A stretch of DNA of 64,000 nucleotides from Lottia gigantea (taxonomy: Eukaryota), in assembly GCF_000327385.1 (NCBI RefSeq), contig NW_008708401.1, forward strand, positions 437,969 through 501,968, read 5' to 3'. Below, in pieces: positions 20,091-64,000 of the stretch; position 1 is the first letter of the stretch, and each line of letters opens with the position of its first letter. Below the pieces are notes generated by a model that saw only the letters and a program-made list of their open reading frames with translations, had not been told where the DNA came from and ran no database searches. A program made the position numbers and the translations under genes.

Positions 20091-20232
20091 AACTTATTAC
20101 AGCCGAAAGCTTAGTTGAAGAAAAATTTAAGATTGCCATCCTGTTTTGATTGAACTCTGTCCATAGTTGCACAATCAACAATCTATTTTTCATTCTTTTT
20201 TTCTCTATTTTAGGTAACCTGAAGTTAGCAAA

Positions 20233-27373: not shown

Positions 27374-28514
27374 TGTAATATCATATCATATCCAACAGAT
27401 AATTTCCTAAAAAATAAGTGATATTATTCATATTGACATTGGTAAGACTGACATTTTGCAAATTGTGGGGGATGGGGGAAAAGTGTTGAAAATCTGAAGG
27501 TATTATCTCGACCTATGTTTGGGCCATATATACATGTATATTTAAAAGATCAAATACATGATAAGAGTTAAGGGTATGCTTATTTTCTATATTCTTTAAT
27601 TGAATGCTATATTTTGAGATAGGGTTCAATCACAGTATAGGTCGAGATAATACCTCGATTTCCCCGTCAGTCATGCAGGTAAGAGGAGCTGTGCTCTGCA
27701 CGTTAAAGATCCCTCGACAGTTGGAAATCGAAAAAGAGCAGGCTAATGCCGCTGTCCTGGCAAAATTTCCCTCATTGAACACTGCATGGCATTGCCCGTC
27801 TTCATTAGCCCACATGGTGCAGAAAAGTAGGACGTAAAACTCCATTAATTTCATTTCATTTCTTATGGGAGGAACTTGTAAAGGGGGAGCACTGTAAGCC
27901 CTTCCTTGTATTTCACCTCACTCAGTCTGTATTCAGCAATCAGTGAATCAGTCATTCACAGAGAAAAACTGGCCATGATCGTATCCATTCATTCGCATTA
28001 GAAATATAGTAAAAGTGTAGATTTATGTCTATTCCTAGACGCAAGGTTATCTGCAACGTCTTCAATACACTTGCTGCAAGTGTCAATTGCATTAAGACCC
28101 TTTTATACCCACTTATACGTCCCTTACGGACGAAACTTGTTCTGCAGGTGCAGTCAATTGGTATAGCATAAAATGTTGATTTGGATTACCAGCATTTGCA
28201 GCAGTAATCGATTGCAAATAAGATGTTTGGTCTTATAGAAAGTATTAGGCCTATCTAATTATATTTTATGTAATTGAACTACATATTTGTAACAGATCGC
28301 TGTTATTTCAGTGAAAATAATATTTTTGTTAGTAGTCGAAATTTATCTTTTAGGCAAAACCTTTAATCCCACAATCCATTTGCCAAGATGTCAGCCCCCA
28401 TTAAAATGTAAACAAACACAGATTTGTGCAATATTTTAAAATATTTCAGTCAAACGTTTGAAGAATTTGGGAAGTTATGGTACAAATCCAATTGATTAGA
28501 TAGAATCAGCAATT

Positions 28515-43700: not shown

Positions 43701-46700
43701 TAAACGGTTTCACAGAACCAATGAGCTATCCAGTCTGTGTTATTAAATCAGAAACTGAGAAACGTCAAACATTTGTACAGAATCCTTTCGTGGAACCTGC
43801 TATTCATGCCGTTTTTACTTACGCCAATGCCTTTCGCAAAGCTCATGAAACCTTTTGTGGCCCTAATGCATTCGGAATGTGTGATGCGCTAAAGAATCTT
43901 ATTCCCAGAGATTTTTACCTGAATTACTTGAAGGGTGTGAACTTTAAGTACAATACAGAAGAGCGTATATCTAGTTTGTCCTCCTATATATTGGAACCTT
44001 ATAACACAGCAAAACAAGTCGATTTCGACATTAATGGTGATATCATTAATCCTGCTTACGATATCTGGAATTTCAACAACCTTCTTCAACAAGAACAAGA
44101 CAAAGGTGAAAAATTTAGATTGGTAGGTATTTCATATTTTTCCACTTTAAATTTCAATAAATTTGTCCATGCCTTGTTTAAGTTTAATATTTTGGGTATT
44201 GAAATTTTCTTTATTATTGGGTGTTTCATGTTGGATACTCAACCTTCAGATATTTGATAGTGTAAACTTTTGGATACCCTTGATTAAGTTAACTGTTATC
44301 ATCCATTAATTCTATTGTTTTACAGGTTGGAAGATTCCTGGGAAATATACTATCCATCAATCGAGATCAGGTAGAAATGTATGATGAAAAACGTGAAAAG
44401 CCATTGACTGGTATACCAGAATCTGGATGTACTGTTCAGCCATGTGGACCTTGTGTTGGAGTTCCTCCAGAGACCAAGTACTTCTACCAGCATGGTGATG
44501 TAGTTCTGACTGGTCTGTTCTCCTTACATCAAAAAGGACTCAGTCCTCTAACTTGTGGAGCCTTTGACAAGAATAACATCATCTCCGGGGCTCAATATCT
44601 ACAAGGAATGATCTATGCACTGTATAAAGTAATCCAGAACACTAATATCTTACGAGGAGTACGACTAGGTGGTCTGGCATTCGATGATTGTATGAGCAGT
44701 ATCTTAGGAACCACCACCATATCACAGGTTAGTGAAAAACTCTTGATTTTATACGAAATTATATGCTTGGTCCATATCATAGTGGGTTGCTGCCAAATTT
44801 ATTATTAGGAACCATACAGTCTCAGCAAGTTATAAGTTTTAAAGATTCATATCATTAAGACAATATTTCCAGGATGGCTTGGATACAAAAATAAACCACA
44901 CTTGATGAAGTATCCATCATCTTTAGTCAGGCTCTCCACTTATATCTCAAGAGAGATAACTCTAATTGATATCTTAAGACCAAAATATTACAATAAGTCA
45001 TTATAATACAGTATGCCACTAGTAGATAAACTACATAGATACAAATTTTTCCAGGTCCAACAAGGTGCTCTGACTATAACAGACAGCAGTGGTAATATCC
45101 TGGATCCTAGAAAAATAGATGGTTACATGGCAGCTCATTCCAGCCAATTGACATTCCCCATAGCTGAGTTGATGAACATTTTTAAACGCCCCTTGATTGG
45201 CTACGCTAGTTTAGATGAAGATCTTTTAGATTATCCTTACTATCTGCGTTCCACTCAAGGTTCGGCTTTTGAAAAGCGCGCTATTATTAAGATGCTCAAA
45301 AGACTTGGTTATGAGTATGTCCAATTGGTTTACGAAGATTCAGAATACTTTGTGAAAGGAAGTTATGATTTCCGAAGAATTGCTGCTGAAGAAGGTGTCT
45401 GTGTCATCACTACCATTAAAGCTGGAATGGATGGATCAGAAACAGTTCAGATGCTACGAAAACGAAAAAACATCAAACCAGTCATTTTGAATGTTGGAAT
45501 TATGGGAAATAAGCGTTTTCTGGAGGGTGTCAGCCAAATGAATGCTTCTGGAGAGTTTGCATTATTTGGTCTGCATACTTTTGGAAGATACCAACAAGTG
45601 GTAGAAGGTAATGAAGACGCAGCTGATGGAGTAATCAGTTTAGATATGAGAAGTTCCAATCTTGGGGAGTACCAAAAGTAAGTCTTAACTTTTTAACCCT
45701 ACTGATTAGAACTGCGCCATCTTATCCACTGACTCTCTAAGTAAAGAAAATTCTTATATGAAAGTTTAGTTTTATTTGAATTGTTTATACAGATTACCAT
45801 CCTCTTAGGTATTTTGCTTTATTTTGAATGATATCTGCCTTTCTGCTACTTTGTTTGTCAAATCTGCACCCTTTGGGTAGTTAACACATCTGATAGTGTT
45901 TTTCACCTCATCGCATCCCTCTTGGACAGTCTTGGTATATTGTTTTAAAAGCATTAACTCTTTTCTTATTTCAGTTATCTATCTCGGCTACGTGTAGACA
46001 GTGAGAAAGACAGAAATCCTTGGTTTAGTGAATGGTACCAACATGTCCATCAATGTTTTTTACCAAACTCACAAATCAAAATGTACACGACACCTTGTCC
46101 AGACGTGGCCAACATTGGTATAATTGGAGCTGTAGATTATAAACTAATGTACTATCTGGAAGCTAGTATCAATGCTGTTTATGCCTTCGCCTATGGTTTG
46201 GATGCTGCATTAATTCAGTACTGTGGTGCTCAATACAGTGGAGTTTGTAATAATTTCCTCAGTGCCAAAGATAAAGGGGATGTTTTGGTTCAGAAGATTA
46301 AAGAAATCAGTTTTATTCCTGAGAATTCTCCCTACATTATCCGATTTAATGGTCAAACCATTGATCAACCTGCTGTCTTCTATAATTTTGTCAATGGCCA
46401 GTTTAGAGAGGTATGTTCTTTGTTTTTATTTGAAAGGACACATGTAGGGGAGCATTGTTTTTCTATGTATCTTTAGGTGAGGGGCCCTGAATCTGTATGT
46501 GAGGGGACCAAATTGGGGCCACAGAATTCTCAAAGGGGGACCCACAAGCAATTCTGGAAGGGCTGTAATCTTTTAGAGAGTAGTTATATCATGTATCCAT
46601 GGAGAAATTTCGTACTCTTTTGACCCTTGTATTGAACTCCTTATTAAGTATTAATATTTTTGATGGTACATTTCTTAACTTCCAGATTGGAGAGTATGAA

Positions 46701-49700
46701 GCTATGAACAACCAGCTGAAAGTTACCCAAATTCCAATTTTCTACAACAATACTGCCTCTTCTATGTATAAACCAACATGTCCACAGATGTGTCGTGAAT
46801 GCTTCTACATGTTTCAACATCAAAACTATATGTACATTGATGGAGACTTGTTCATACCTGGCATGTTTGACGTGCATTATTCAAAACGACATGTATCACC
46901 TTTCAGCTGTGGATCTCTTCGCTCAGAAAATGGCTTCCAGTATGTAGAAGCTTTTGCTTTTGCTTTGGATTATGTAAACAATGGTCAAGCTGGTGTAAAG
47001 TTGAATAATAATCTTAAATTGGGAGGTTTGGCTTTCGATGGTTGCTCCAATTCCCTCAGAGCAACTACGTTAGCTAATGCTTTCCAATCTACGGCTATTA
47101 GATTCAAGAACAACAATGGTGGATATATCGACCAGAGGAAGACACTAGCTTGGCTCGGTTACGACAGTCAATCCACCATCAATATGGCTGAATTATTAGG
47201 ATCCATTGGTGTTACAGTTGTGAGTCCAGGAGCTACCTCACCATTATTGAACGACAAAACAAGATTCCATAGTTTCTTCCGAACTATCCCATCTGAAGGT
47301 TACCTTGCTAGAGCAATGGCAGATCTGACAGAGACTCTGGGATTTAAATACGTCATTACAGTCAACTCTCCTGATACAGCCATGAGGGAAGCTAAAGATC
47401 ACTACAGGCAATATCTGAAAGACAATGGCATCTGTGTTCTGGCCTCATACGAGTTTGTCACAGATGGAAGTATGGAAATTATTCTAAATTCAATGAGTGA
47501 ATCAACCACAAGAGCTGTTGCAATATTTGCTGAACCTGACATGTACGTTAAAGAGCTGATGGAGCTGAAACAAAATCGATACCCAAATGTCAACTTCATT
47601 TTTATTTCCAATCGCAAATTTTATGCAAAACAGAAGAACTATGCAGCTGCAGTAGAGAATGCATTAAGTTTTGATATGGATGTTCCAACAGTCCAGGAAT
47701 TTGTGAACTATTTAGGAAGTTTACAGTACACCAGTAACACACGCAATCCATGGTTCAAAGAATTTTATGAAGAGAAATTTGGGTGTCAGCTATTCCCCTT
47801 GTATGCTAGTCCAGCAGTATGTACCATTAAGACCATGTCTATTGTAGACTCTTCCTTCCAGCAAGATTTATACACACTCTCCACTATTAATGCTGTTTAT
47901 GCTCTAACAGAAGGTATGTGCCAATATTTTTCACTTATTCATTGTCTTACTCCATGTAGGGTATTAGGATTTTGGATTTATTAGAAATATGTACATCTAC
48001 ATGTACATATGAAGGTAAACCTTTTTTGTCCTTTATTATTGATGATTGTGGCAGATTATGTAGTTGAGGGTTCAAGGTTATAAAGCACCTGTCGGAAAAA
48101 ACAAATTATCTTTAAAATAAATCTTTTATTGCTATTTTCAGGAGTTCACAGAACATTACAAGAGAAATGTGGAGCATCGTATACCTCTATCTGTGGTAAA
48201 TATCTAACAGATGCTGATACCAACCAGAGGTTGATGGATCACATGGATAAATTGAATTTTACTGATATTGTCGGAGCTTATTTTGAATTTATGGAACGTG
48301 AGGCAAGACAATCCTTTACTGTCAATCAATATAAAAATGGTGATCCGTTTAAGGTAAGAAATTTGTATTTTTTTGGTAAGTGGATGGGCTGAGAGCTTAT
48401 ATCAGGTTAAAACCTGAAAAGCAATTTATTCTTGCTAGTGGGGAGCTTTAAATCCAACACTCTACTTATAGATACATTATTGAGTGAATTTTGATCTGAT
48501 TGTGGTAGGTGTCATAAGCATAACAGCAAATGCTATGCCCTTTAGGAACTCTTGATACCTTCTTTTGACTGGGTTCCCAACTCAGCATCACTTAAAGCAT
48601 CATGTGTAATTTAGAGGGAGATGGAGGAATTCTTCAGAATAGTAAAATTACTTGATAAAGTGAAAAATCAGCTCAATAAAACCACATTGTTATTTTAAAC
48701 CAATTTTGACATGTATTTCAGGTTGCAAGTTTGTTATCTGGAAATCTGACCTACCCTGATTTAAATAATCTTAAAAACAATTATAGAAATGTTCCATCAA
48801 CCTGCGATAATAACTGTGATCTTTGTTCAGATGCCAAAAATAATTTTGGTGATTTTACTCATATTGATGGTGACATATATTTTGTCGGTAAGTAGTCTTG
48901 GATCCACAAGTTTCAGTTATTCCTCATTTTATGAACGTGATTGCATCCCTTCCTGACATGCCCATTTTGACATTAAAGCAGAATATTCAGAGGCATAATC
49001 TGAAATCCCAAACAGAGAAAAGCATAAAAGTAGGACGTAAAAGCCAATTTCATTTTGTTTTATAGGGTTATTTGATGTTCATAAGAAAGGAGCAACACCA
49101 TTTTCCTGCGGTAGTCTTAATGACAAACATGGCTTCCAACTTCTAGAAGCTTTCAACTATGCTGTGGAATATGTCAATGACAAGAAGGGTATATTTAGAG
49201 ATAAACTCAATGGTGTCGATATTGGTGCCATTGGTCTTGATGTTTGCCAGAATCCTACAAGAGCTGCCAATTTGGTAACCAATATCCATAGTAACAGCAT
49301 AAATTTGGTGGACCCATTTGATGGCACTTTGGTTCAACCCTCAAGATTCGATGTCTATATTGGTCCATTTGATACTGATTCATCCATCAGAGTTGCTGAT
49401 GTTTTGGATGGCTTGTCAATTCCACAGATTACCTACGGTGCCACAAGTCTTGAACTCCAGGACAAGAAGAAGTACCGATATTTCCTTCGATCTGTTCCTG
49501 CTGATGATAAACAAGCCAGAGCCATTATCTCCTACCTCAAACGATTTGATAACAACTTTGTTCAGATTATCTCCACCTTTGACAGTGTTGGTTTGAAGGG
49601 TAAAGAAGAGTTTAAGAGATTAGCTCCCTTGAATAAAATCTGCGTAGAGAAAGAAATTACTGTAGGCTATGATGTAAGTCTATTTATGTTACTCTTTTAC

Positions 49701-52700
49701 AATTGTTTATAAATGGATAGCATCTGTAGTATTAGATCTTTCTATAATATTTCAATAACGCTAGATGTGATTGTTAATGAAAATTTATCATCTGATTGGC
49801 TTAATAACATTAAGATGTTTGAATGTACAGTAATTTGATTGGTTTATAATTGGTTAATTGAGATGACTTAAACAGTCAAATAGAATTAAATTGATTTCAT
49901 TGGTTAATAATATTAAGATTTTAATCAATCTCTGTGATTGACCAATGAAATGACTTTAACTGTATTTACTTTTGGATTCAAATTGATCCGATTGGTTAAT
50001 AATTTTAAGATTTAAATTAATCTCCTTGATTGGCCAATATGAGATGACTTTGATAGGATTTACTTTTAAATTCAAATTGATCTGATTGAGGCTGATGAGG
50101 TTTTGTGAATTTAAAACAATGAATCATGATAAGTACTTTTCATTTGCCCTTAGAGGTTGCAAGAGATTAAAATATTATTATTTTTACTCTTTTTCAGGGT
50201 CCTGTAACAGCAGCTGAAGCTAGTAGTGCTCTAGAACAGCTAAAGGCCAATCAATCAGCTAAGGTTGTAGTGCTGTTCGTCGACGATCCAAGAGTTATTC
50301 TTCAAGCTATTGATGTAAACCCTGAAATAAGGAACAATTTCTTCTTCATTGGTACTGATAAATGGGGCATGGATAAAGATATCTTATTTGGATTGGACAA
50401 TTTGATCAGTAGTGATAAAGTTGTAACTTTCGATGTAGAAACAGCTGATGTACCTGGCTTTGATGACTATCTTCAATACAAGACTCCTGATAACTATAAA
50501 CGTAACCCCTGGTTTAAAGAATACTACGAACAGCAATATCAATGTGATATCTCTGAGCCTAATTGTGTACAGAATCGTTTTGGCATTTCAAGAAATGAAA
50601 AGTATATCCAAGATCCTTATGTATTGTATGTGGTCAACGCAGTCTTTGCAGCAGCCCTTGGTGTCCACAAGAGTTTGGTGGAATTGTGTGTCGGTGGTAA
50701 TAATCAGAACCAATTCTTAAATGGTGTCTGTTCCTTATTCAGACAGAGTGGAGAGCGTCGTCAAAGAATCCACCGAGGAATTACTAAAGCTGAGTTTATT
50801 GATGACACATACCAGCCTTTCTACTTCCTGGAAACGGGGGAAAGTGACCGTGGTTACCATATTTATGATCCTAAAAAGGATGATTTGGGTGAATACGTAT
50901 ACGACAATGTAAGTTTCTTCCCTTTTTTATTTTTATTTTTATCTGGCAAAAATGTTAAAAACTGTCCTAAAATGAATCATGAATGTAGATTATGCATTAG
51001 AGTACCTGAATCTGATTGTTCTTCAGTTCCTGAACATGATACAAGATCCTTAATTGGACAAATTGGTTTGGTGACAGAAGATTTTGCACCAAAACATCTA
51101 AACTGGCTGTTGCTATGCCAGTCTGTGAATAATTGTAAGGAAAAGTAGATGGAAATGATATTGGGTTACAAGACAGCCTTGATAACTTTGAGTATGATGA
51201 TATCTCCTAAAAAGTCTTTTTTTTATATTCTTTTCAGGTGGGAAGCTACAATGATACTGACTTTTTGAAAATTGACATCACCTATGACATGAAGTTTCAA
51301 TCCAGATGTAAAGAAGGAGTAGATTGCCCCTGTATTTTCCCCAAATATGAACAATCAAGGTACATGTTAAAAGAGTCAGCATTTAACTTGAATCTGGTGT
51401 ATGTTGCTAACCTTCACCAAGCTGTACCAAATGATCCATTCCAATGTGGTATGATGTCCTCCATGAGCAACTTCCAATCTATGCTTGCTTTCTTCTACGC
51501 TATTGGTCAAGTGAATGCAAACGAGTTCAATAAGTATCCAGCTTCGTTGAAACTTGGAGGATTAGCTGTTGACAGTTGCTCTCAACCAATGAGAATTGGA
51601 GAAGATGTATACAGTTTGTTGAGTGGTGAAGGACTTTGTCATTCCAGTGGACGTGGACAAATTATCTCCCCTTCCTCAGTCGTGTCATTCCATGCCTTAT
51701 CAACAGACACATCAGAACCACTTAGTCGAATTCTAACTCCTTATAAAATCCTGTCCCTCAGTCCTGGAGCTACTTCAGTTAGTTTGAGTGATAAGCGACT
51801 CCATCCTTACTTCCTGCGAACTGTTCCTCCAGATGATATTCAGGTTGTTCTCATGCTACAGGTCATGAAGCAGTTTGGTTGGGATTATGCCTCCATCATA
51901 TACACAAATTCTGGTTATGGAATTTCAGCTAGAGATGCCTTAATCAGACAAGCAGCTTTCGCAAACTTGAAAACCTGCGTCGGAGTTGGTCATGCTTTAG
52001 CTTACTCCACATCCTTGACTGAAGTAGAAGAGATTTTAGTCAGTTTGAGTCAAAAGGTTGGATCACGTGTAGTGATACTCTTTACAGATCCAGCACACTC
52101 ACGTCTGATCCTTCAAGCCACCAAGAATAAGGGACTGACTGGTCGATTTGTTTGGTTGGCCAGCGACTACTGGGCTAACAGTATGGAGATTGTGCAAGGA
52201 TATGAAGAAGAAGCTGTTGGTGCTCTTACAGTCCAGATCCGATCAGAGTTCGTCCAGTCTTTCAATAACTTCATGATGAATCTGAATATGACCAATAGAA
52301 ATGGCATCCCTGATGACTGGTTTGAAGAGTTTTATCAAACTATACACAAGTGTAGAATCCTTAAATCTGAAGTGACGAAACAGTTCCCACGAGTGTGTAC
52401 TGGAAGTGAGAAAATCACTGAAGACATGATCAGTCAAGACCCATTCGTTCTACATACTATTATCTCCGTATACCAGATCGCCGAAGGTTTGAATAGCATT
52501 GCTGCATGTAAATCCTCATCAAGATTAGATTTGTATGCTTGTTTGTCTCTTCAACCAAACAGACGCCATCTCATCTACAACAATGTTTTAGGAGCTCAGT
52601 TAGATGTGTTGTCCAATGAGCTGAAAAATAGAAGCTTCACATTCAAATTCACAGCAGATGGTTATGGTGATATTGGTTACAACATATTAAACTTCCATCG

Positions 52701-55613
52701 TGATGTCACTCAGGATAAATATGTCTACTCAAAGGTAACAAACTTGCTAGAAAATTGTCCAGAGTGCAAAATGAACAATACAACAGTGGGGCGTGCAAAT
52801 CAAATTTTATCTCAAAGGCTTTATGAAATAACTGCATCATGGGTTATTATGTACCAAATGTTACATTGGGGCATTTGTGCAGTGTTTTGATTCCTTTTCA
52901 GTACAATCAGATGTTGAAGTGAATAATTCTTGCTAATCTTCTGTCTGTTGTTAAATGGCAAGCTTCTAAGTAATCAAGATTATAGTGAACTTCTGGACAA
53001 ATATTACAAATCTGTTTCTTGCATCTTAGCTGATTTGTTTGTTCAGGCATATTGATCCCATGATGTTGATCTAGATAGTAGTGGCAGGTGTCGCGCGAAG
53101 AAGATCATGCTTACTCTTTTTCGAAACACCTGATGGTATTTCTCTTTGGAGGAGTCCACTACTGTAATATTTTTACTCTTGATTTTGCCATGCCTTGGAC
53201 AAGATTTTGATTAACGGAATTATCTTTCTTGTACAGCTTTTTATTATATAACCTTGATGACATGAACATTAAAAATGTGACAAGACCTTATCATTAAAAA
53301 AAAACCTGTCAGAGTCTAATGATCAAGCATCTTTTTTTTCAGATTGGAATCTACCAAGAGTCACTTACCATAAACAGACTGGCCTACCGTGGAAAGAGTA
53401 TCCTGACTATTGGAGTTATACCATTGTCAACTTGTCCACCATCAATCAACTGTACATGCTATGCAGCAGGAGCATTGATCAATGAAGGAGGAGCTATCAT
53501 TGGAAGTGGAGTATCTGGTGATAGGATTGTTGCAGATGAAGGTGGAGCGGTATACAGATATCAACATAGTTACACTGATACTGGTTATATTATAGGATCA
53601 GATGGAACTTATCTTGACCCCAAAACAGGTGCTTTATTAATAGTGAAAGGTGTTCGTAAAGGAGCAGATAGGTTCTATGATATTTGGGGAATTATTTTAG
53701 CAGCTTTAGCAGCCATTGGAGCTTTTATTGCTTTATGTATGTTCATCTATTTACTGGTAGTCTACCCTGTACGAAGTGGCACAACAATCCTTGGATTCCT
53801 TCTATTATTTGGCATCATATTGATGTACCTGTTGGTCTTTGTTTTCATTTTCCATGCCTCACCAGAAATTTGCGCTCTACGAAGGTTTGCTTTAGGATTT
53901 GTGTATGCTCTAGTATATGCTGTTTTGTTTGTGAAACTGGTTGATTGCTGGAGATCCAAAAATGCCGGTGACTATTCTGAAGTGAAATACAGTAAAATTG
54001 GACGACCTGTTGGACTATTGTTCTTGGTGATCATGCTTGTGTTGGTCCAGGTGATTATCTGTGCTGAATGGCTGATTTTGGTAGCTCCTGGCTTCACTAC
54101 CATCTATTACAACCAATATATTTGGCCATTGTGTCTTCCTATTGGTTGGTATGATACAGCATTGGTCCTCTCACTGGTTTATGTCATGTTCCTGATTATC
54201 TTATGTGTTATTTTTGGAATTGCCTGTTTCTCAAGCCCAAGAAATCATTATGAATCAAGATGGATTCTTGGTATTGCCATTCTGAGTATTCCAACTTGGG
54301 TAATCTGGTGCCTCGTTGCTGTGTTGGCAGATTATGAATTCCGAGATGCTGCAGTGGCTGTTGGTCTGTTATTGAATGCTACCTATATGTTGTTATGTGG
54401 TTCCCTACGTAAATTGTATCTATTGAACAAATATCAAGCTCTGATTGACGAAGAGGAAAAGGAAATTGAAAAAGAGAAAAAGAGCATGAAAGGTGAGTTA
54501 AAACTCCTCATAAAATGGCACAGGGAAAGTCAAGTTGTGTGTATTGTATTGTGGGTATTGTGTGTTCATATATGAATAACAACTGGCGCTACCCAGTACT
54601 TTTGCATCTGTATATTACATAATTAACCAACGATCTGAACCACAAAACAAAAACCCGAAACCAAAAAACCTTTTGGACAAAACATTGGTAGCAGCTGCTA
54701 ATGAACTTTTCACATGAGGAAGTACATCAACCATAAGTGAGTAAGGTAGGAATTAGGTAGTGCCAAAGTTTTATGGTTGATATCATATTAGATCTTAAGT
54801 GGCATTGTGTGTTGATATAAGATAGGATTTTGGTCTGTGAAATGGTCTTTCTGGAGTTAGATTTTACTTGCTTATGCAAGATTCTAGTTTTCACTGTCAG
54901 TTGATAGAACATTGTGAATACTGCTTTTGTTTTATTTTATTTTATTTTTTTCGCTTTCCTAATGTGCTCGTTTGCATGTGCCAATATTGATTTTGGTTCA
55001 ATTTTGTCAATTACATACAGTATAGTTATCATTTATATATTTTACAGGATCAGTATATTACAGTGAGTATGACAACCGACCACATTTCCATGGAAGTACT
55101 CATGGTAGTGTTCACGGTAGCATGCATGGTAGTGTCCATGGCAGTCGTCATGGAACTCTGCAGGGCCGTAATAGTGGATATGCTTATGTTCGTGGCCATA
55201 GAGGGCAGTTAATCATGGTCCAGACTGGTGGACATGGAGGTCACAGTACCAGACTCCATTCCAATGGTTCCGGTATTCAAAATGGAGGTGGTATGGTCGT
55301 TGCACACAATCAAGCTGAAGAAGAAGTCTTCCATGCAAGTGGACATAGTGCTGGTGGAATGATCATTCAGGAAGATATCCATCCTATGATTAATGATGGT
55401 CATTACAGTGAAGTCAACCATGGGCAAGGTGGAATGGTTATTGTTAGTGGTGGTGGTGAAGAGTCTATGAGGATGCTCAATGCTGATGATGCAGTACCTA
55501 GTACTAGTGGTGGATTGTCAACATCTCAATCAGGACAGTACTCTGAGGTCATCCGTGGTGGAGATGGTGGGGTCAGTGTGTCGGAGGCTTTTGGCAGTAG
55601 AGGAAGTAAGTAG
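40796..55613 (+). CDS. Giant class C (metabotropic-glutamate-like) GPCR of about 3020 aa with FIVE tandem Venus-flytrap (ANF_receptor / PBP type I) modules, a Gly-rich stalk, 7TM and a His/Gly/Ser-rich tail. Sixteen exons: 40796-40961 (signal peptide), 41344-41454, 41948-42067, 42754-42920, 43220-44122 (VFT1); 44326-44727, 45055-45677, 45975-46410 (VFT2); 46686-47913, 48142-48353 (VFT3); 48723-48888, 49066-49673, 50198-50908 (VFT4); 51238-52734 (VFT5); 53343-54492 (linker plus 7TM); 55048-55613 (tail, stop 55611-55613).
   Basis: Each module shows the mGluR-type landmarks in order: the D(I/V)x(I/L)GG(L)F..H start; an N-lobe (GIQ..A..FA...IN....LKLGGLAFD(D/G/S)C or IGAIGLDVCQNP); SPGATS..LSDK..(Y/F)(F)FLR(T/S)VP(P/S)D; NPWFKE(F/Y)Y(E) and a C-lobe. 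The 7TM has seven hydrophobic helices with the class C TM3 signature PEICALRRFALGFVYALVYAVLFVKL. All 15 junctions are GT-AG with matching phases and the summed CDS is 9066 nt, divisible by 3. Modules 2-5 have no start codon or signal peptide of their own. AATAAA near 55989. Confidence 0.7.
53682..54380 (+). other. Seven-transmembrane (7tm_3, class C) region of the multi-VFT receptor.
   Basis: Helices IWGIILAALAAIGAFIALCMFIYLLV, ILGFLLLFGIILMYLLVFVFIF, RRFALGFVYALVYAVLFVKLV, LLFLVIMLVLVQVIICAEWLIL, LVLSLVYVMFLIILCVIFGIACF, WILGIAILSIPTWVIWCLVAVL and AVAVGLLLNATYMLLCGSL. Confidence 0.7.
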
Positions 55614-58600
55614 ATTTTAAATTATTCCTTGATTTTAACTATGAATTACAGTGCTAAAAGGTTATTATTTATGTTTTTAACAAGTGGGATCATTCTGTAT
55701 GTGTGGTGTTGAAACTTTATTACAAGATATTGTGATACTTGGTTTATCTCTCCAAAAATATGCTTCAAATGTTACAGTATTTGTAGGGATGGGTTTAGAT
55801 CAAAAACTATTCCTTTCAAATATTAGAAACAGTATTTTGTTAGCATTGACTATAAATGTTCAGGTCTCTAATCTACTATTACTACTGGAGTAAACAATAT
55901 TGTGTTATTGGTATTTGCTGTAGTCTTCAATTCTTAAAGGCATTGATATAGGTCATAATATAAAGTCTTTAAACCATATGCTTGCAAAATAAAGATTAAT
56001 TAAAAAGGTTAATTATTGATGATAATTTGTTGGTCTATACTTTGTGTAGGTGTAATTATTATTGAGGATATTACACATTATTGTTTATAATTGATATCAT
56101 TATGGCACTTTAAACATTGTAGCTATATGTATCATTATTATTATTATGATTATTTCATTATGAGCATTATATTATTATTATTATTATTAAAATGTTTGTT
56201 TATGACGTAACATTATTATCATTATGATTATTGTAACATTGTAGCTACATACAGCTCTCATTATGATCATTTATAACATTGTAGCTATACAAGACTATGA
56301 TAATAGCTATTATGGCCCTAATGTGACTATCAGACAACGCTCTGAATATGAAGGTAACATTTACTATTTTTGATAGTGGTAAAAGTGACTATGTTTTATC
56401 ATTTTCTTGCATTTTATGTTGTAATTTTTGGTTTCATTTGTAAATTATGTTTTTCAGTTTATTTATTTAATTCAGTCATGGATTTTGTTTGAAAAGATCA
56501 AAAATGTAAAAATAAAGATAAGGAAGAAAGATATAGATATTTCTAAAATAAGAAAAAAATTCTGAAATTTTGAATTTGATAAATCACCAATATTTTATTA
56601 AAGATTTTTAAAATTTGAACTAATTTTTTAAATAATTTTAGCTGTTGAGGGTCACAGAACAGTTTTTGAATATGGTAAGGGTTCGAATTAATAAGCTTGA
56701 TACAGAATTCAGCCTGCTTGTTTTTTATAGAATGGTCATCGTGTTAAAGGATGAATTCCACTCCAGCTTAAATTGAAACAGATTTTAATCCATCTGTCAA
56801 AGATATTGTGTTTATTATTTCTTAACAAAAACAAAAAATAAGGATTTGTATGAAAAAAACCCTAAATGCTTTGTAGATAGTTTACATTTTTAGGAATTTT
56901 TCAGTTTTATAAATGATTCGATGACTAAATATCCAATATTTATGTAAAAATTGCCAATTCTTTAATGTAATCATTCATGCTTGTGGCCCAATATTTTGAA
57001 ATGAAAAAGTTTAAGTATTTAGAATGTCGCATTTTTCTTATGTTTGTGTTACAATTTTTTGCTTTGGCTTTTATCATTTTATTATATGTATTTTGTTTAG
57101 TTTAAATTCATTATTTTTTTTATATAGTTGCTTCATTTTAAGGCAGTGTTCATCATGTTAAAATATAGCCTGAAACACGCTTATTCTTTCCAGATTGTTA
57201 GACCATATATAACTAATAGTTTTGAAATTAGCTACCAGCCAAAATAAGAATCAGCTGGTTTCAGACTAAGTTTTATTTTAATCATGACATATAATGTCTG
57301 GAATGTTTTGTGCTATATTTCTATCTTGAGGATATTCATCTCCATGGCCGTTTCATTTCATTTCTATCTGGGGGATTGGTTGGTGAGGATTAGGTTATGC
57401 ATGAAGAGATCTTGGTCTGGTGATTTGAATTCTCTAGATATTTATTTATTATTGTATTTTAGTTTTGTGCCAGTTGTCATGTTAAATTGTACTATTTATT
57501 ACAGATCTTTCAGTTTAGTAGTAGAGCATGGCTATGCAATCATTTAATATGTTTTGGCTTTCAGCTTTATTTTCCATTTGTGATTGCCTATTCTAATTTT
57601 GATGAACGAATTTTTGCAAAACAAATATTTTTTTAAGAGTGATAGTTGGTAAATGTGAATCAAGATGCATTGTAAAAGTAATATTTAATACTTTATGGGG
57701 AAAATTTGTAAATTTTGTTCATGCCCTTTTATAAGTGATATTTGTGAATGTTTTAGAATCAAAATTTCCTATGAATAAACAAACCAATTACTAACGATCT
57801 TAGCGGCTAAACCAAACCAAAACAACATATTGGTGAAAAATTATTACACTCTACGTTGTCTGTTCAAAATTTTACTAAATTCTCTTTGGGGAAAGTTTCA
57901 TTTCAACAAAGTATTTATTTTGCTGTTTACTTTGTCATTTCAGATGATTTGAGTGATTAAAGAAATCCTTCCAAATAAACAACAATAGATAGAAGAATCT
58001 CATAAATGATACAATAATTAATGGAACCAAAAACAGTTTGAAAATGGAACCGTAAGCACAATTAGTTAATGACAAATTGTGCTTATAAAACAATTTTCAT
58101 ATTATGGACATCGCATAATTTTATTATTTGACATAATTAAACTCCCCATAAAAGAAGGAGAGGGTTAGAAAATTTGCCTATCGCTCATTTATAGTAGTAG
58201 TAAATATTATGTCACCCATCGTAAAATAATATATTGGCGCTGTCTAAAAATTAAGCTTATTTTGCCCTATTCACTGAATTAAATTAGTAAAAAGCATATT
58301 TGATAATGTCAGCAAATACTTCATTATACAATAAGAATTTTCTATTTCATTATATATATATATATTGTTATATACTTCGTTACGTTATTGTACGTTTAAA
58401 AATTTGTAAATAGAAAATTATGGTGAATAACAATGGTGTCGTCCAGTAACATTGGTCAGTGATCACTGATTATAATTCCACAGTTCTCCCTAGACCAAAA
58501 TTTTGAGGAATTCAAAACCTTCTCGTCTTTGCAATAGATTGCACAGAGTTTGCAGAGCAATAGCACCATCCGAAGAGGAACTGTCTTATGGATCAATATA

Positions 58601-61196
58601 AACTGAACTCTCTGCTGGGGGTCACCAATATAAAAAGCTATTGTCTCTTTTAACAATTTACTGAATAGATTTTTTTAATAATATTTTATACTAAATCATA
58701 TATTGTACAGATATTTTTATAATAAATATTATATACATAATCCTAGGTTTATCTCACTTGCGTTATGAATTTGGTTTGGTCCAGAATAATTACCAACGTT
58801 GATTTACTATCTTATCTCATTGGGTTTTGTCCTTGGTTTATAACACTGCATCCAAAGCTTTTTGGATTATTTTTGCTCTGTTTAACGGTATCATCTGTTG
58901 TTAGCCTTATACCCTTTTTCCCAGAGATATCAAAATTGAAAGCCAAAATCTGATGAATGTTCAATGAAAGGTTTGGAATGGATTTGGTTTCTCTTTCAAA
59001 GGTACAGTCCACAAAATGCTTGGTCGGCACAACTCTTTGAAAATAAACCAGGAAGCTTTTTGTATACCCACTTCAAACGAAATATTGCGTCAAACAATGT
59101 GGTAGAATTGTGTTTTGCAGAGGTTCGATTGCCAACTACCCAAAAGGGTGGTTTTATATGGACTTATTTCTTGCATTTTATGACCGACCAGATCACAGAT
59201 GTATTTTCTTTGTTTAATGTCATCGTTGAATATCCCCACATCATACGAAAAAACGTAAAGTTCTTACAAGAAAATAACACACGCGAACGTAGTTCACAGA
59301 CATTTTGAATATCTACCAAGCCCCCACCAGTATCCCAGCTTTGCTTTGGGTAATTTCCAATTTGACATAAATATCTATATGTTTCGTTGGTCAGTCTTAA
59401 AACAGTACCATCGATATGAATTATACAAAATTTTATATACAACTTTATTGTAAAATCAATTTGTACGATAGGTTCCTATCTGACATTGACGTAAAAATAT
59501 AAAATATATCAAAAACTAAAATAACTATATTTATAATATACAATTGATGAGTAATTTTCTGGTTATTCTATACTTATAATAAAATGTCATTAAACACATA
59601 AAAGAAGAATGGTAATTAAAATGATTCAAATAAACTGACACGCCCATCCTTTAAAAAGAAATACAATTTTCCAGTTAATGTTAGCGTCGATTGAATAAAA
59701 AAAAATAGAATCTACGACGCCAAAGTACCGTTTGTGCGGGAAAAGACGTTTCGAATACGATTTAAAAGCGTAATTTTTTGTGGGCTCTTGCAATGAAATA
59801 CAACCTAAATTATTTGGTATGCATCATTCAAGCACCATCCAACACTATTGAGACAATTATTTTATAAGGTCACATCTATAGTAATTTCTTGACCATGATA
59901 ATGAAACATAAAATATTAGTAATATACAATATGCATACAAAATGTACATTGGGATATTTAGTACCAGTAGTCTCCATGCTCCAGCCATATTTAGTCTGTC
60001 AGCAATATTCAAGCAATGCTACTGTCCGTGGTAGTATTCCAATGTAGCTTGAATGTGCCTATCGTAGTCCGTGACAACCATACATCGACATATTCCGTCG
60101 CAAACTGTCCACAACAAAGCGGAGCTGGTTATAAGAGGCTTTAAATATCGCTGACCGTCTTTATGACCGGACAATGAAAACTTGACGGAGATATTTAAGA
60201 TACGATGTGGAAAATTTCTATATGGGATACTAATTGAGTAATACTAATGGTTATTTAAAATTCATAAACTTAACAAAATGTCAGAGAAATTGTTGAAAAA
60301 CGATCAAATTCAGCCTAAAATCTCATAATCATAGCTTTGGTAAAAATGTACAAAATATCTGGAAAACCATTTACCTTACCTAACCAAGTTTTCATTTCCA
60401 TATACTAATGGACTATTTTGCTCTTAATATCATAGACACTTATAATGGAACTTCTATACGCGGTTAAATTAATGCAGCGTTCTTTAAAAAATGTGACATT
60501 TTCCTTTTTAGGCATTCCAAAGATGGAATGCAATAAAATACAAAAACGCAAGTCTTGATCTGCTTGTATCAATGAAACATTAATTATTCATTATTCTAAG
60601 GCTATTCAAAAATATCTTCGCGAATATCGGGTTCATACCCCACCCCCTTCAAAAAATATTTGAGTAGTTTTCTTCTGTTAAAATGTTCAAAGATTCACCT
60701 TTTATTTACACCAATTCTTCTATTTTTTAATTAAAGAGCTCCTATATTTTGATGTGATCGGCTTCCTGAAAAAAGATATCAAACTTTCAGTAAGTCCACC
60801 ACAATGACACTATATACACGATCGTTCCATGGAGATGTAAAACAAAATAAGACGACATATTTCTGTCCAAAACAATCCAGCTTCAGTGAAGCGAATGTAA
60901 TACCCGATTTGATAAATTTCTCAAAACTATGATTAGTTGAATTTACCCCACAGACTACTTAAATGAGGTATCGGAAAGATATTTATCATCCATAGGATTA
61001 TCTTAAAAATGAACTGAATTATTAGCTTAAATCACATAATATAGGACACAAAAGTACGAAAATATACAGCACAGGTGCATGAATAAAAAAGAAATGGAGC
61101 TTAATAAAGTGTTGGCAGGGTATCACCGCGCCGTTTTAATCGAGTGCAACAAGTACCTATTGGACTACCTCTTGAAGTTAAAAAATATTGAAACTT

Positions 61197-63792
61197 TTAC
61201 TTACGACCGAGTGTTCCTTTAACAGACCGTCCACCATATCCAAAATCTGACTGAGGTCGTTTTCGTTCAGCAGGGTGTTTTCCTGTCAAATCTCCGGTTA
61301 CTCGTAAGACTTTACTACTAGGACCGATAGTGGAATCTGCTTTACGGTACATACCAGGTGGGGAGCTGTACACACTACCAGCAGTGCTGTATTTCAGATG
61401 ATTGTGACCTGAAAGGAATATGATTGTGGAGGGTGTTATTAGTATTCAGATTAACTGGTTGGAGTGGTCACCTAACATCGGGGCATTAAAGATGCTTCGC
61501 ATATCATCATATGACATGGAATCCTCTATTTACTAAAAGATGAATATTTTGATTGTTGCTTGCTTGGAGGGAATACTAAGGCGTTTTTGTCACCGTGCCC
61601 TCCCCATTACGGCATAGATTCTTCAGTCCCTAAAGGAAATATCAAGGATGACATACCTGGATCTCCATTGAGATGAATTGGATCAGAGTATAATCCTGGA
61701 TTATTGACGTATATAACCGAACCAGGTCGGGATTTATAACTTGGTGGGGCCAATATTACTGACTCGTTATAAACTGTATCTCTATCATCCTCAAAATATA
61801 TTCCTTCTACGCCCATATTCACCAACTGTCGGACTTTTGGTAAAAACATAGCAAATAGAACCAAGGTTGCTAAGGAGAAAGAAAATAAAGACTGGTTTTA
61901 ATATTAAGAAATACAAAGTAAAATGGAGCAATGATGTATATTTGTACGGTTTAGGTAAAGCAAACAGTGGTGTTTCTACGAGGTCAGAAAATGGGCTTTG
62001 CAGGTTTTGCCCCCACGCCCCATATCTATATTTCTTATCACTCTGTAGTAGGCCATTTGGGAACAATGGAGGGAAGATCTAATTGCTATTTGGGAAGATT
62101 TGGCTATATTTATGGTAAGCGGTACACACACCAACATACTCCATTGTTAGCAAACAAATTCAAGCTTACTATTATTACTAAATGAAATGAATTGAATGGA
62201 CTTTTACGTCCTACTTTTTCGCATCTGAGGAAATAGGAAACGTCATGCAATCTGCAATGGTCCAACCTTAGTAAGCCACAACATCTCCCAAATAAAAACA
62301 AAACACGCACCTGTTAAAAAGAGACCAAGCGCTATACAACAATCACCAAACTCTTGAGCATAACCATGATCTCTATTTAAACCTCCAACTAAGGTCCAGG
62401 CCAACCAGATGGGAATGGAGAAACCAGCTGATATACCAATGAATATACTTTCTCTATTGTTGGTGATGATACCATGTGATTTCAGGGCCAATATGGTGGT
62501 AATCAGAATTAATACCATGATGTAGATCAGAGACAAGACGTGGTTCTCAAACTCTGTTCTTACGAACCCACCCATATCTTTCCAACCTGAAACAAATTAA
62601 CGTAGGTTATATCATGTCCGCAAGCAGATACACATTACTTTGCTCAAGATGAGATAAGGGTACAACGCCGCAACCCTCAATGTGGAGTTAAGGAATTTCC
62701 CTATTTCTCTTCATATATAGCTGCTATACTACCACACATGAAACAATTTATTTCAGCATAGCAATATCGCTTTGTAAATAACTAAACCATCAGACAATGT
62801 CTTGGTGAATAAGTTAGTTTGTGCAATGAGCGTGAAAATGTCATCGACGAAATAAAACCGTTTTCCAAAATCAAATAGCCCTTAGGCTATTGTTATTCTG
62901 TGTATTTTCAAATATGCTGCATGCAATAGTTTAAGTAACTGAATTGTTAACATGAGCTCAAATGAAAAGATAGTGAAAAATATAAATTACCTGAACCAGC
63001 AGTCCATGTATAATGATTACAGATCCAATATTGTTCTCCTCGGTTATCCATAACCTTAATAGCCTCTGGTGGTACAGTTATTAACCACTGGATAGCGATG
63101 ACTACCTGGACTCCGACAGCAAACATAAACATGAGGAACTGGTAAATACCCTTGAGGTAGTTGGGTGACTCAATATCTCCTGGTAGAAGAGACTCTGATG
63201 CCTTAGATGTCAGAATAACCATAAGCTTCACCAGCAGTACAGAAAACATGATGGCGTAAGACACACCGACTCCGAATCTGGTGATACCACAAGTAGCTTT
63301 GGTTGGGATTGGGATGTAGGCAAATAGTGTCAAATAACTGAGGAAAATACCGAAAAGCAGAAGTTGACCCAACCAGACTGTTCTCCATTTGTGACTGTTG
63401 TGAGTACCTAGTAACTTATACATGACATAAATTTCAAAAACAAAGACGGCAAAAATACCAAGACCGGCCAAAACACCAAGAGCGATAATCCATTTTTGTC
63501 CGATTTCAAATCGGGTCATGTACTCTCCCATTGTTCTGTTCTGGGAAGCGTATGCCCCAGTTATCTCCTGCATAGTTGGATAATACACCATGGCCTGTTT
63601 GCCACCTTCCAATGGGTCTCTAGTAGTACTTTCAGGAGCCGACGAGGCAGGAGTGGTAGATGTTAGTGCCTGAGTAGACGGTGCCTCGTTGCAGACCAAA
63701 CATGGCGTATCTGGGCATCGGCCTCCTGGATAATAATTCCTGACCAAAATTCTTGTTTGAGACAGGCCAGTACTGTTCACATACTTGCCGAC
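61197..63792 (-). CDS. Second class C GPCR, 3' portion (the VFT exons lie beyond the window edge past 64000). Exons, minus strand in transcript order: 62991-63792 (linker RCPDTPCLVC, Ser/Thr-rich stalk, TM1-4), 62321-62586 (TM5-7), 61657-61869 (end of TM7 with the FLPKVRQLV PK motif and the tail), 61197-61408 (terminal tail exon, TAA at 61197-61199). If the 61655-61656 donor is not used, the CDS instead reads through to the TAA at 61607-61609.
   Basis: Minus-strand ORFs 62947-63780, 62243-62575 and 61607-61864 join through GT-AG sites with phase continuity (1,1,1). Class C signatures are present: a Cys at the top of TM3 (CGITRFGVGVSYAIMFSVLLVKL) and PK after TM7. A minus-strand acceptor aatttcag lies at 63793-63800, so the gene continues upstream outside the window. 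Confidence 0.55.
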
Positions 63793-64000
63793 CTGAAATT
63801 GAGAATACCGGACAGTTTAATCAATACACATTCAACTGGCTCTTCAGCTAATCTTGATATCTGGAATAGTCAGAATTATAATTGAACAAGCCCTCTTGGT
63901 GGAGTTTGTCCTGGCGAATGCTATTGTAAATAGAATTTGATTTCAGGGTGAATTGTAGAGTCATTTTATCAATCCTTTTGTCGATCTTTCTTCCCTTGAA

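What the first reader, a model, noticed from the sequence alone, without database searches (positions are those of the whole stretch)
61197..64000. Convergent tail-to-tail pair of class C GPCR genes
A second 7tm_3 receptor lies on the minus strand with its 3' end about 5.6 kb from the 3' end of the multi-VFT receptor. The gap between them is AT-rich and full of microsatellites. This suggests a local expansion or cluster of class C receptors. The second gene's ectodomain lies beyond 64000, so whether it too is multi-VFT cannot be seen here.
Basis: partly seen in the sequence, partly recalled or inferred. Interest (0 to 1): 0.5.

Follow-up and report, generated by a model that had tools for sequence, protein, structure and literature searches.

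The report
Two neighbouring, anciently diverged class C receptor genes
The minus-strand exons are the 3' half of an ordinary, well-conserved mollusc orphan receptor gene of the metabotropic-glutamate-like kind, which sits tail-to-tail with a five-flytrap receptor gene that is only a distant relative, so this is not a recent local duplication.

Summary
Minus-strand exons encode a class C (7tm_3) seven-helix core, convergent with the plus-strand multi-VFT receptor (gene A).

One correction: the stop at 61197 is intron read-through. A conserved 35-nt terminal microexon (60765-60731) gives the true C-terminus ...GTLGRSRSHQNIGAL*. The gap between coding ends is therefore 5,117 bp. It is AT-rich (GC 28.9%) and has only five short perfect microsatellites.

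Gene B is a new member of a known kind. It is the orthologue of a receptor found across molluscs (Patella, Batillaria, Elysia, Octopus, bivalves). Every full-length orthologue has one Venus-flytrap domain and no nine-cysteine domain. A Ser/Thr/Pro-rich stalk links the flytrap to an mGluR2/3-like 7TM, and the tail carries a conserved PPxY motif and ends in -LGAL.

Genes A and B are not recent duplicates. Their 7TM cores are 34-35% identical. A falls outside the group joining B and a Drosophila orphan in 200/200 bootstraps. A scores about as well against mGluR3 as against B.

Linkage is nevertheless seen again. One other species' contig carries an A orthologue followed by two B-type genes within 33 kb, all on the same strand. 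No partner gene lay within 10 kb in seven other loci.

B's ectodomain lies beyond 64000. A single flytrap is inferred from orthologues, not seen directly.

The parts
62991..63793 (-). Gene B, first exon visible in the window. It encodes the last residues after the flytrap, a three-cysteine motif (CPDTPCLVC), a Ser/Thr/Pro-rich stalk, a conserved juxtamembrane segment, TM1-TM4 and the start of ECL2.
   Evidence: Acceptor tttcag| at 63794-6 and donor |GTAATT. Pfam 7tm_3 E 9.9e-22, no NCD3G hit. 67-75% identical to the Patella exon at L003 15121-16053.
62311..62586 (-). Gene B exon encoding the rest of the long ECL2, TM5, TM6 (IPIWLAW) and the first half of TM7.
   Evidence: Acceptor gtttcag| and donor |GTGCGT, in frame. 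7tm_3 profile positions 167-243, E 2e-5. 86% identical to Patella L003 17273-17551.
61657..61869 (-). Gene B exon encoding the end of TM7 (FLPKVRQL), helix 8 and the proximal tail, which carries VNMGVEGIYFEDDRDT and PPSY.
   Evidence: Acceptor ccttag| and donor |GTATGT, in frame. Motifs conserved in all orthologues.
61205..61408 (-). Gene B exon encoding the distal tail (...VLRVTGDLTGKHP...GTLG). It ends at a phase-1 donor C|GTAAGT.
   Evidence: for the acceptor. for the donor. The identical donor context is present in L003, L001, L004, L007 and L008.
60731..60765 (-). Gene B terminal microexon (35 nt including TAA) encoding (R)SRSHQNIGAL*.
   Evidence: Acceptor ttttttcag|. The peptide is identical in Patella and near-identical in Batillaria, Elysia and three ENA loci. 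All full-length orthologues end in -LGAL or -LGPL.
60701..60706 (-). AATAAA hexamer about 25 nt after the stop codon, a candidate polyadenylation signal of gene B.
   Evidence: Read directly from the sequence. Not tested.
55614..60730 (.). Intergenic gap and 3' UTRs between the two convergent coding ends. It is AT-rich and sparse in simple repeats.
   Evidence: GC 0.289 and 5 perfect SSRs. TRF arrays. No Pfam hit for ORFs in the gap. No Rfam family or tRNA.
55048..55613 (+). Gene A terminal exon, a Gly/His/Ser-rich repetitive tail.
   Evidence: Donor AAAG|GTGAGT at 54492/3 and acceptor ttttacag| at 55047, in frame. SVYYSEYDNRPH matches the P0194 tail VVYGRQYDNNPR. The GGxVxVSGGGxES repeat is shared with the ORF downstream of the A orthologue in L002.
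53319..54492 (+). Gene A 7TM exon.
   Evidence: Pfam 7tm_3 E 1.5e-33. 47% identical to P0194 residues 2477-2823.
41346..52887 (+). Gene A ectodomain exons, comprising five Venus-flytrap modules.
   Evidence: tblastn colinear with P0194 residues 65-2464. phmmer hits of VFT queries. P0194 has 5 ANF_receptor stretches.

Best explanation
Window 60731-63793 (minus strand) is the 3' portion of one intact protein-coding gene, gene B. It consists of five exons encoding 509 residues.

[quoted passage not shown] By orthology the full protein is about 970-1000 aa. It has a signal peptide and a single Venus-flytrap domain, both encoded beyond 64000. It has no nine-cysteine domain. In its place are a C-x4-C-x2-C motif and a Ser/Thr/Pro-rich stalk, which is probably O-glycosylated. 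A conserved juxtamembrane segment follows, then a 7TM core, then a roughly 135-residue cytoplasmic tail.

Inferred mechanism: a small ligand, probably an amino acid or a derivative but not necessarily glutamate, closes the flytrap of a dimeric receptor. The change is passed through the stalk, the juxtamembrane segment and a long beta-structured ECL2 to an mGlu2/3-like 7TM that activates a G protein. The tail's PPxY motif, its Tyr motifs and the invariant C-terminal -LGAL probably control trafficking or scaffolding.

Gene B lies tail-to-tail, 5.1 kb from a five-flytrap receptor gene (A). A and B are ancient paralogues within the mGluR-like branch. Their linkage recurs in at least one other species, so this is an old, rearranged class C gene neighbourhood and not a fresh tandem duplication.

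Shown here: the gene model, family membership, orthology, the domain content of orthologues, the depth of the A/B split, and one independent case of linkage. Inferred: ligand class, dimerisation, G-protein coupling, and the roles of the tail motifs.
For: Gene model:
- The exons join in frame with canonical splice sites.
- The exon layout is the same in Patella vulgata.
- The terminal microexon is conserved in 6 loci.
- dN 0.18 against a saturated dS (pS 0.73) versus Patella over 531 codons.

Family:
- Pfam 7tm_3 at 78 bits.
- The best solved relatives are mGluR3/2, E 9e-13.
- AlphaFold model with pLDDT 79.5 and pTM 0.79. It shows seven helices and a beta-structured ECL2.
- Its best Foldseek matches are mGlu3 and mGlu2 (E 3e-12, rmsd 2.8 A to 7mts_B), followed by other mGluRs and CaSR.
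- Class C switches are retained: TM3 LLVK, NxRE before TM6, IWLAW in TM6, FLPK in TM7, and the TM3/ECL2 cysteines.

Orthology and architecture:
- 69-89% identity to mollusc proteins.
- The mollusc clade has 199/200 bootstrap support.
- Full-length orthologues have one ANF_receptor, one 7tm_3 and no NCD3G (precomputed domains).
- The Patella orthologue starts with a signal-peptide-like sequence.
- No further VFT-like ORFs were found in the 10 kb upstream of it.

Ligand pocket (Patella orthologue aligned to mGluR6/7):
- SS, AxT, VPxD and YG are kept.
- GSD becomes GTS, and the Arg before LEAM becomes Asn. Residue roles come from my knowledge of mGluR1 S165/T188/D208/Y236/D318/R78.

A versus B:
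- 34-35% identity.
- A is outside the B+Drosophila group in 200/200 bootstraps.
- Bit scores: A-B 70-79, A-mGluR2 67, A-mGluR3 86.

Linkage: an A-B-B arrangement on ctg86900.
Against: - The flytrap exons of this particular gene are not in the window, so the single-VFT architecture is by orthology only.
- No expression data were available, so splicing and the poly(A) site are predictions.
- The tree is neighbour-joining on 256 columns with a single mGluR2 outgroup. The taxa were chosen by similarity to B, so deeper relationships are not resolved, including whether A and B are each other's closest class C relatives.
- The exact 'B+Drosophila' clade was recovered in only 15/200 replicates, although A was always outside it.
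- No A-type gene lies within 10 kb downstream of B in Batillaria, Patella, Elysia, Tegillarca or Octopus. No B-type gene lies within 10 kb downstream of A in two further contigs. Linkage may therefore not be general, or it may hold only at larger distances that I could not see.
- Ligand, coupling and the functions of the tail motifs are untested.
Confidence: 0.82

Rival explanations
1. Recent local (tandem or inverted) duplication: B and A are young paralogues produced by a lineage-specific expansion of class C receptors at this locus.
For: The two 7tm_3 genes are adjacent. Their 7TM cores align end to end at E 1e-27. Another species has two B-type copies in tandem, which shows that duplication does happen at this locus.
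Against: Identity is only 34-35%. B is nearer to a Drosophila gene (133 bits) than to A (70 bits). A is outside the B+Drosophila group in 200/200 bootstraps. A has clear orthologues of its own with 4-5 flytraps. The exon structures differ: A's 7TM is in one exon, and B's is split over three.
Confidence: 0.03
2. Gene B is a true glutamate-activated metabotropic glutamate receptor, as NCBI names the Patella, Liolophura and Tubulanus relatives.
For: Both the flytrap of the Patella orthologue and the 7TM find mGluRs as the best solved relatives. Four of the five alpha-amino-acid contact positions are kept.
Against: There is no NCD3G cysteine-rich domain in the window segment or in full-length orthologues. 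The Arg that holds glutamate's distal carboxylate is Asn, and the GSD Asp is Ser, in the Patella orthologue (residue roles from prior knowledge). 7TM identity to mGluR2 is about 25%. The family groups with a flytrap-less Drosophila orphan.
Confidence: 0.12
3. The minus-strand exons are a decaying pseudogene or fragments belonging to more than one gene.
For: No transcript evidence is available. The 5' part is unseen.
Against: All five exons are in frame with canonical splice sites. dN is far below dS. They are colinear with single annotated proteins in Elysia and Batillaria. A 35-nt microexon is conserved down to the peptide.
Confidence: 0.03
4. A and B are kept together because they work together. 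They could be obligate heterodimer partners, as with GABA-B1/B2 or T1R pairs, or they could share regulatory elements.
For: A-B linkage recurs in a second species despite more than 40% divergence of the proteins. Class C receptors commonly heterodimerise (established knowledge).
Against: The orientation differs between the two species, convergent here and head-to-tail there. No partner lies within 10 kb in seven other loci. Elysia has PPIP5K2 as the downstream neighbour. Nothing here bears on protein interaction.
Confidence: 0.07

Closest known systems
Group II metabotropic glutamate receptors (mGluR2/mGluR3)
   Same: They are the best solved relatives by sequence (E 9e-13) and by fold (Foldseek E 3e-12, rmsd 2.8 A). 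They share the 7tm_3 core with TM3 Lys, TM6 Trp and the TM7 PK motif. The orthologues' flytrap is also most like mGluR flytraps.
   Different: About 25% identity in the 7TM. No nine-cysteine (NCD3G) domain. A mucin-like stalk sits in its place. ECL2 is about 17 residues longer. Two glutamate-contact positions are changed in the orthologue. The tail is different (PPxY, -LGAL).
Uncharacterised mollusc proteins annotated 'metabotropic glutamate receptor(-like)' or 'GPCR family 3 profile domain-containing': Patella vulgata XP_050409339.2, Octopus bimaculoides XP_014769680.1, Elysia chlorotica EGW08_007435, Batillaria BaRGS_00020943
   Same: These are orthologues at 57-89% identity. They share the exon layout (Patella), the C-terminal microexon and the tail motifs.
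   Different: This is another species' copy. Several public models are truncated or split: the Patella model stops inside the 7TM, and the Batillaria model lacks the flytrap.
Drosophila orphan class C receptor (D. biarmipes LOC108030883 / D. yakuba LOC6534593; possibly the CG32447 orthologue, which I could not verify)
   Same: It is the closest named non-lophotrochozoan relative: 36-39% identity across the 7TM and 133 bits. It shares the FxPK(V/G)RQL...MGxEG(I/L)Y(L/V)ED helix-8 region and a Ser/Thr-rich ectodomain segment.
   Different: It has no flytrap domain (7tm_3 only, about 190-residue low-complexity N-terminus), a much longer ECL2 and a different distal tail.
GABA-B receptors
   Same: A class C receptor whose flytrap joins the 7TM without a cysteine-rich domain (established knowledge).
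   Different: There is no sequence affinity. No GABA-B chain appears among the 60 listed PDB matches for B (63 matched at E <= 1), where mGluR, CaSR and GPR179 do appear.
Neighbouring multi-flytrap receptor (gene A; relatives P0194 with 5 VFTs and P0211 with 4)
   Same: It has a 7tm_3 core and mGluR-like flytraps. It is genomically linked here and on ctg86900.
   Different: 34-35% identity. Five flytraps against one. The TM7 motif is RK in place of PK. The 7TM is in a single exon. It belongs to a separate clade.

Membership tests
Class C GPCR (Pfam 7tm_3) | Seven-helix domain matching PF00003 above the curated threshold | tested here: met
   78.3 bits against a 33.5 cutoff for exon 1 alone. 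Exon 2 covers the remaining profile positions.
Class C GPCR (Pfam 7tm_3) | Class C fold and conserved switches: TM3 Lys, TM6 Trp, TM7 xPKx, and the TM3-ECL2 disulfide cysteines | tested here: met
   Residue alignments to mGluR2/3 and the family alignment. AF2 model with pTM 0.79. Best structural matches are mGlu2/3, with CaSR next.
Class C GPCR (Pfam 7tm_3) | Extracellular Venus-flytrap (ANF_receptor) ligand-binding domain | not testable with these tools
   It lies beyond 64000, and the window's genome is not in the searchable collections (best hits are at most 89% identical). Orthologues have exactly one.
Metabotropic glutamate receptors | Nine-cysteine domain (NCD3G) between flytrap and 7TM | tested here: not met
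   No NCD3G hit in the window ORF at E <= 1 or in full-length orthologues at E <= 1e-3. There are only 3 Cys between the exon start and TM1.
Metabotropic glutamate receptors | Glutamate-contact residues of the flytrap | tested here: inconclusive
   Tested on the Patella orthologue only. The Ser, Thr, Asp and Tyr positions are kept. The GSD Asp becomes Ser, and the Arg before LEAM becomes Asn. The mapping to mGluR1 numbering is from memory.
Metabotropic glutamate receptors | Phylogenetic placement inside the mGluR clade | tested here: inconclusive
   Only one mGluR (the mGluR2 7TM) was available, and it was used as the outgroup. B is 25% identical to it and 36-39% identical to the Drosophila orphan.
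GPRC5 / RAIG receptors | Short N-terminus without a flytrap, and a GPRC5-type 7TM | tested here: not met
   Orthologues carry a flytrap. GPRC5D is absent from the 60 listed PDB matches of B and is only a 21-bit match to A.
Recent tandem duplicates (local expansion) | The neighbouring genes are each other's closest relatives, with high identity | tested here: not met
   34-35% identity. A lies outside the B+Drosophila group in 200/200 bootstraps. Each gene has its own orthologues.
Conserved gene cluster (microsynteny) | The same gene pair is linked in other species | tested here: inconclusive
   Linked on ctg86900, with 13.7 kb between the end of A's 7TM exon and the start of B1, on the same strand. 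Not within 10 kb in seven other loci. Larger distances could not be inspected.

The most novel reading that the evidence does not exclude
The five-flytrap receptor and the cysteine-rich-domain-less single-flytrap receptor may be kept linked over long evolutionary time because they are functional partners. They could be a heterodimer in which the multi-flytrap subunit senses ligands and the B-type subunit couples to G protein, as in GABA-B1/B2. Alternatively they could be a co-regulated sensory module.
Probability: 0.06. Interest if true: 0.6.

Novelty: new member of a known kind. Interest (0 to 1): 0.2.

Why it matters
The practical value is mainly in annotation:
- It fixes the gene's real 3' end, a conserved 35-nt microexon that read-through models miss.
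- It shows that the family NCBI labels 'metabotropic glutamate receptor(-like)' in molluscs is a distinct orphan lineage. It lacks the cysteine-rich domain, and its glutamate-contact residues are altered.
- It gives the multi-flytrap neighbour a context. That gene did not arise by a recent duplication of the gene next door.

If the A-B linkage proved general, it would give a concrete hypothesis about partner subunits for the unusual five-flytrap receptor.

Tried and rejected
- **Extending past 64000.** This was impossible. No protein in the collections is identical to the window's products (best 89% over TM1-4 to Patella), so the look-up of encoding contigs cannot reach this genome.
- **Looking for the partner gene within 10 kb.** I checked the flanks of B orthologues in Batillaria L001, Patella L003, Elysia L004, Tegillarca L005, Octopus L006 and ENA L009. 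I also checked the flanks of A orthologues in L011 and L012. None was found. Only ctg86900 showed linkage.
- **P0218.** It lies on the same 592-kb contig as B orthologue P0008, 166 kb away. It is an A-related, flytrap-less 7tm_3 gene, not an A orthologue.
- **Pfam on seven ORFs.** These were five ORFs of the gap and the two 'gene X' fragments. No hits.
- **Rfam and tRNA scan of 54-64 kb.** Nothing found.
- **Literature.** CG32447 is only listed as a 'class C GPCR' with no functional study. No paper in the library describes eukaryotic class C receptors with tandem flytraps.
- **Naming the Drosophila homologue as CG32447.** The cluster names are only 'uncharacterized protein', so this stays unverified.
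- **First bootstrap run.** It timed out. I repeated it with 57 taxa and my own NJ code.
- **Treating A and B as sister genes.** I rejected this on the basis of the rooted NJ tree. With a single outgroup, and with A scoring 86 bits to mGluR3, the claim is not safe.
Full report
**1. What is in the sequence**

The window is eukaryotic, intron-rich DNA. Its nearest protein matches are all molluscan.

On the minus strand, ORF 62947-63780 matches Pfam 7tm_3 at E 9.9e-22 (78 bits, cutoff 33.5). ORF 62243-62575 matches the remaining third of the profile at E 2e-5. I found canonical splice signals that join four exons in frame: 63793-62991, 62586-62311, 61869-61657 and 61408-.... The region 63794-64000 is intron, so the ectodomain really is outside the window.

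**2. The 3' end is not at 61197**

Full-length relatives end in ...R(S/A)xSxxx(L/I)GAL. The window model instead stopped at ...GTLGRK*.

The last codons overlap a perfect donor (GGTC|GTAAGT). A pattern search found ...ttttttcag|GA AGC CGA TCA CAT CAA AAT ATA GGA GCT CTT TAA at 60765-60731. Spliced in phase 1, this gives ...GTLGRSRSHQNIGAL*.

The same donor context and the same microexon lie 350-2,070 bp downstream of exon 4 in six other loci:
- Patella vulgata, where the peptide is identical.
- Batillaria.
- Elysia.
- Three ENA mollusc-like loci.

The corrected tail aligns to the end with all full-length orthologues. The visible gene therefore has five exons and 509 codons, with its stop at 60731. 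An AATAAA follows at 60706-60701.

**3. The neighbour and the gap**

The plus-strand gene (A) is colinear with P0194 from window 41346 to 54449. P0194 is a 2,872-aa public protein with five ANF_receptor stretches and a C-terminal 7tm_3.

Gene A's 7TM exon ends at a donor at 54492. A terminal exon, 55048-55613, continues in frame. That exon resembles the tails of P0194 and of the A orthologue on L002.

The genes are therefore convergent, with 5,117 bp between their stop codons. The gap properties are:
- GC is 28.9%, against 35.5% for the window.
- It has five perfect SSRs of at least 12 bp, 68 bp in total (0.98/kb against 0.33/kb).
- It has one imperfect (TAT)n run of about 60 bp.
- It has no Pfam-recognisable ORF, Rfam family or tRNA.

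'AT-rich' is right. 'Full of microsatellites' is an overstatement.

**4. What gene B is**

Its best database relatives are mollusc proteins at 57-89% identity: Batillaria, Elysia, Patella, Pinctada, Tegillarca, Octopus and Liolophura. A nemertean protein and Drosophila 'uncharacterized' proteins follow.

Full-length representatives are 971-1005 aa and have one ANF_receptor, one 7tm_3 and no NCD3G. The annotated Octopus and Patella proteins and both B-type genes on ctg86900 also have a single flytrap. The Patella protein starts with a signal-peptide-like sequence, and I found no further VFT-like ORFs in the 10 kb upstream of it.

In the window itself, the stretch between the exon start and TM1 holds:
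- only three cysteines (CPDTPCLVC);
- a 26-residue Ser/Thr/Pro-rich run;
- a conserved juxtamembrane segment.

There is no room for, and no Pfam trace of, a nine-cysteine domain.

The 7TM keeps the class C hallmarks: TM3 LLVK, NxRE before TM6, IWLAW, FLPK, and the TM3/ECL2 cysteines. An AlphaFold model built on 38 homologues has pLDDT 79.5 and pTM 0.79. It shows seven helices and a beta-structured ECL2 about 17 residues longer than in mGluRs. Its best structural matches are mGlu3 and mGlu2 (E 3e-12, rmsd 2.8 A to 7mts_B), followed by other mGluRs and CaSR.

The tail conserves VNMGVEGIY(L/F)EDDRDT, PPSY, VLRVTGDLTGK and the terminal -LGAL.

Against Patella, dN is 0.18 while synonymous sites are saturated (pS 0.73). 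The gene is under strong constraint.

**5. Likely mechanism (inferred)**

The Patella orthologue's flytrap aligns best with mGluR6/7 (116 bits). It keeps the Ser-Ser, Ala-x-Thr, VPxD and Tyr-Gly positions. From my knowledge of mGluR1, these hold the alpha-amino-acid moiety. The GSD Asp is Ser, and the Arg preceding LEAM is Asn; that Arg is the distal-carboxylate contact in mGluR1.

I therefore favour an amino-acid-like ligand that need not be glutamate. Signalling would be the usual class C dimer type, transmitted without a rigid cysteine-rich spacer. The PPxY motif suggests Nedd4-type ubiquitin-ligase control of surface levels. None of this was tested.

**6. Relationship between the two genes**

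The 7TM cores are 34% (BLASTP, E 1e-27) to 35% (trimmed alignment) identical.

I built a neighbour-joining tree of 57 7TM cores rooted on the mGluR2 sequence recovered. Bootstrap support over 200 replicates was:

| Grouping | Replicates |
|---|---|
| Mollusc B clade | 199/200 |
| A with P0194 | 200/200 |
| A outside the smallest group containing B and the Drosophila protein | 200/200 |

phmmer scores tell the same story:

| Pair | Bits |
|---|---|
| B vs Drosophila protein | 133 |
| B vs A | 70-79 |
| A vs mGluR2 | 67 |
| A vs mGluR3 | 86 |

The flytraps of A are also at least as close to mGluR1 (148 bits) as to B-type flytraps.

The pair is therefore not a recent local expansion. The split predates the mollusc-arthropod divergence. 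I cannot even say the two are each other's nearest class C relatives.

**7. Is the neighbourhood conserved?**

- Batillaria;
- Patella;
- Elysia, where the next gene is PPIP5K2;
- Tegillarca;
- Octopus.

No B-type gene lies downstream of A in two more contigs.

One contig does show linkage. On ENA contig ERZ25071447:ctg86900, an A orthologue (flytrap ORFs from at least 336107 to 344599, 7TM exon 346097-347149) is followed on the same strand by two complete B-type genes. They lie at 360849-366030 and 373877-379167. Each has one flytrap ORF and the same 3' exon layout.

The gene downstream of B in Patella matches window minus-strand ORFs at 17866-18180 and 24014-24142. So the wider neighbourhood is partly shared but rearranged.

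'Cluster' is therefore fair. Orientation and spacing are not conserved.

**8. Verdict**

The missing ectodomain is almost certainly a single flytrap.

Gene B is a new member of an already sequenced but unstudied orphan lineage that automated pipelines call 'metabotropic glutamate receptor-like'. This is ordinary gene content, of modest interest mainly as context for the five-flytrap neighbour.

Noticed in passing
window 53319-54492 (+); alignment A1: In the multi-flytrap clade (window gene A, P0194, P0211, P0063) the near-universal class C TM7 'PK' motif reads 'RK' (SLRKLY, PVRKLY, YIRKVY). B-type genes, the Drosophila relative and the two-flytrap P0182 keep (F/I)(L/M)PK.
   Followed up: no
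window 41346-55613 (+): Gene A is colinear with a 2,872-aa public protein carrying five ANF_receptor stretches. Relatives with 4 and 2 flytraps also exist. I found no paper describing eukaryotic class C receptors with tandem flytraps.
   Followed up: partly
window 55048-55613 (+); L002 12495-13550: Gene A's tail is a Gly/His/Ser/Met-rich repeat (GGMVIVSGGGEES, YSEV x2). It resembles the GGTVVVSGGGFES repeats encoded 1.3 kb downstream of the A orthologue's 7TM exon in another species.
   Followed up: partly
window 17866-18180 and 24014-24142 (-): Two minus-strand ORFs are 55-60% identical to the gene that lies immediately downstream of the B orthologue in Patella vulgata (L003 26385-28072). This indicates partly conserved but rearranged synteny. 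Neither ORF has a Pfam hit.
   Followed up: partly
window 20233-23112 (+): An uninterrupted 959-aa ORF with weak TPR matches lies on the opposite strand between the two 'gene X' exons, possibly nested in its intron.
   Followed up: no
window 13047-13898 and 14873-15541 (+): Two ORFs encode long Met/Pro/Gly repeats, (MPGPMGG)n and (MDPRAAMMG)n. Neither has a Pfam match.
   Followed up: no
window 3999-8010 (+): There is a series of exon-sized ORFs. The one at 3999-4517 encodes a von Willebrand factor A domain (VWA E 5.7e-41). The others look similar by eye.
   Followed up: no
window 27640-27845: A short segment matches translated ORFs at five or more separate places in the Patella locus L003 (5037-5180, 16516-16865, 17746-17979, 24837-25083, 27074-27422). 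It is probably a shared interspersed repeat.
   Followed up: no
L008 / L007 (ENA ERZ25071447:ctg86900, record 360849-379167): Two complete B-type genes sit in tandem 7.8 kb apart. Each has its flytrap in a single ORF of about 500 aa. This shows lineage-specific duplication of the B-type gene elsewhere.
   Followed up: partly
P0044 and relatives (Drosophila): The arthropod relatives of gene B keep the Ser/Thr-rich stalk, 7TM and helix-8 region but have no flytrap domain. The 7TM part may therefore function without it.
   Followed up: no
L003 10001-18072 (Patella vulgata XP_050409339.2); L001 (Batillaria): Public gene models of the orthologue are defective. The Patella model ends inside the 7TM (…INDYGCLYLQLL), although the remaining exons lie at 17273-20433. 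The Batillaria gene is split into separate ANF_receptor and 7tm_3 models.
   Followed up: partly
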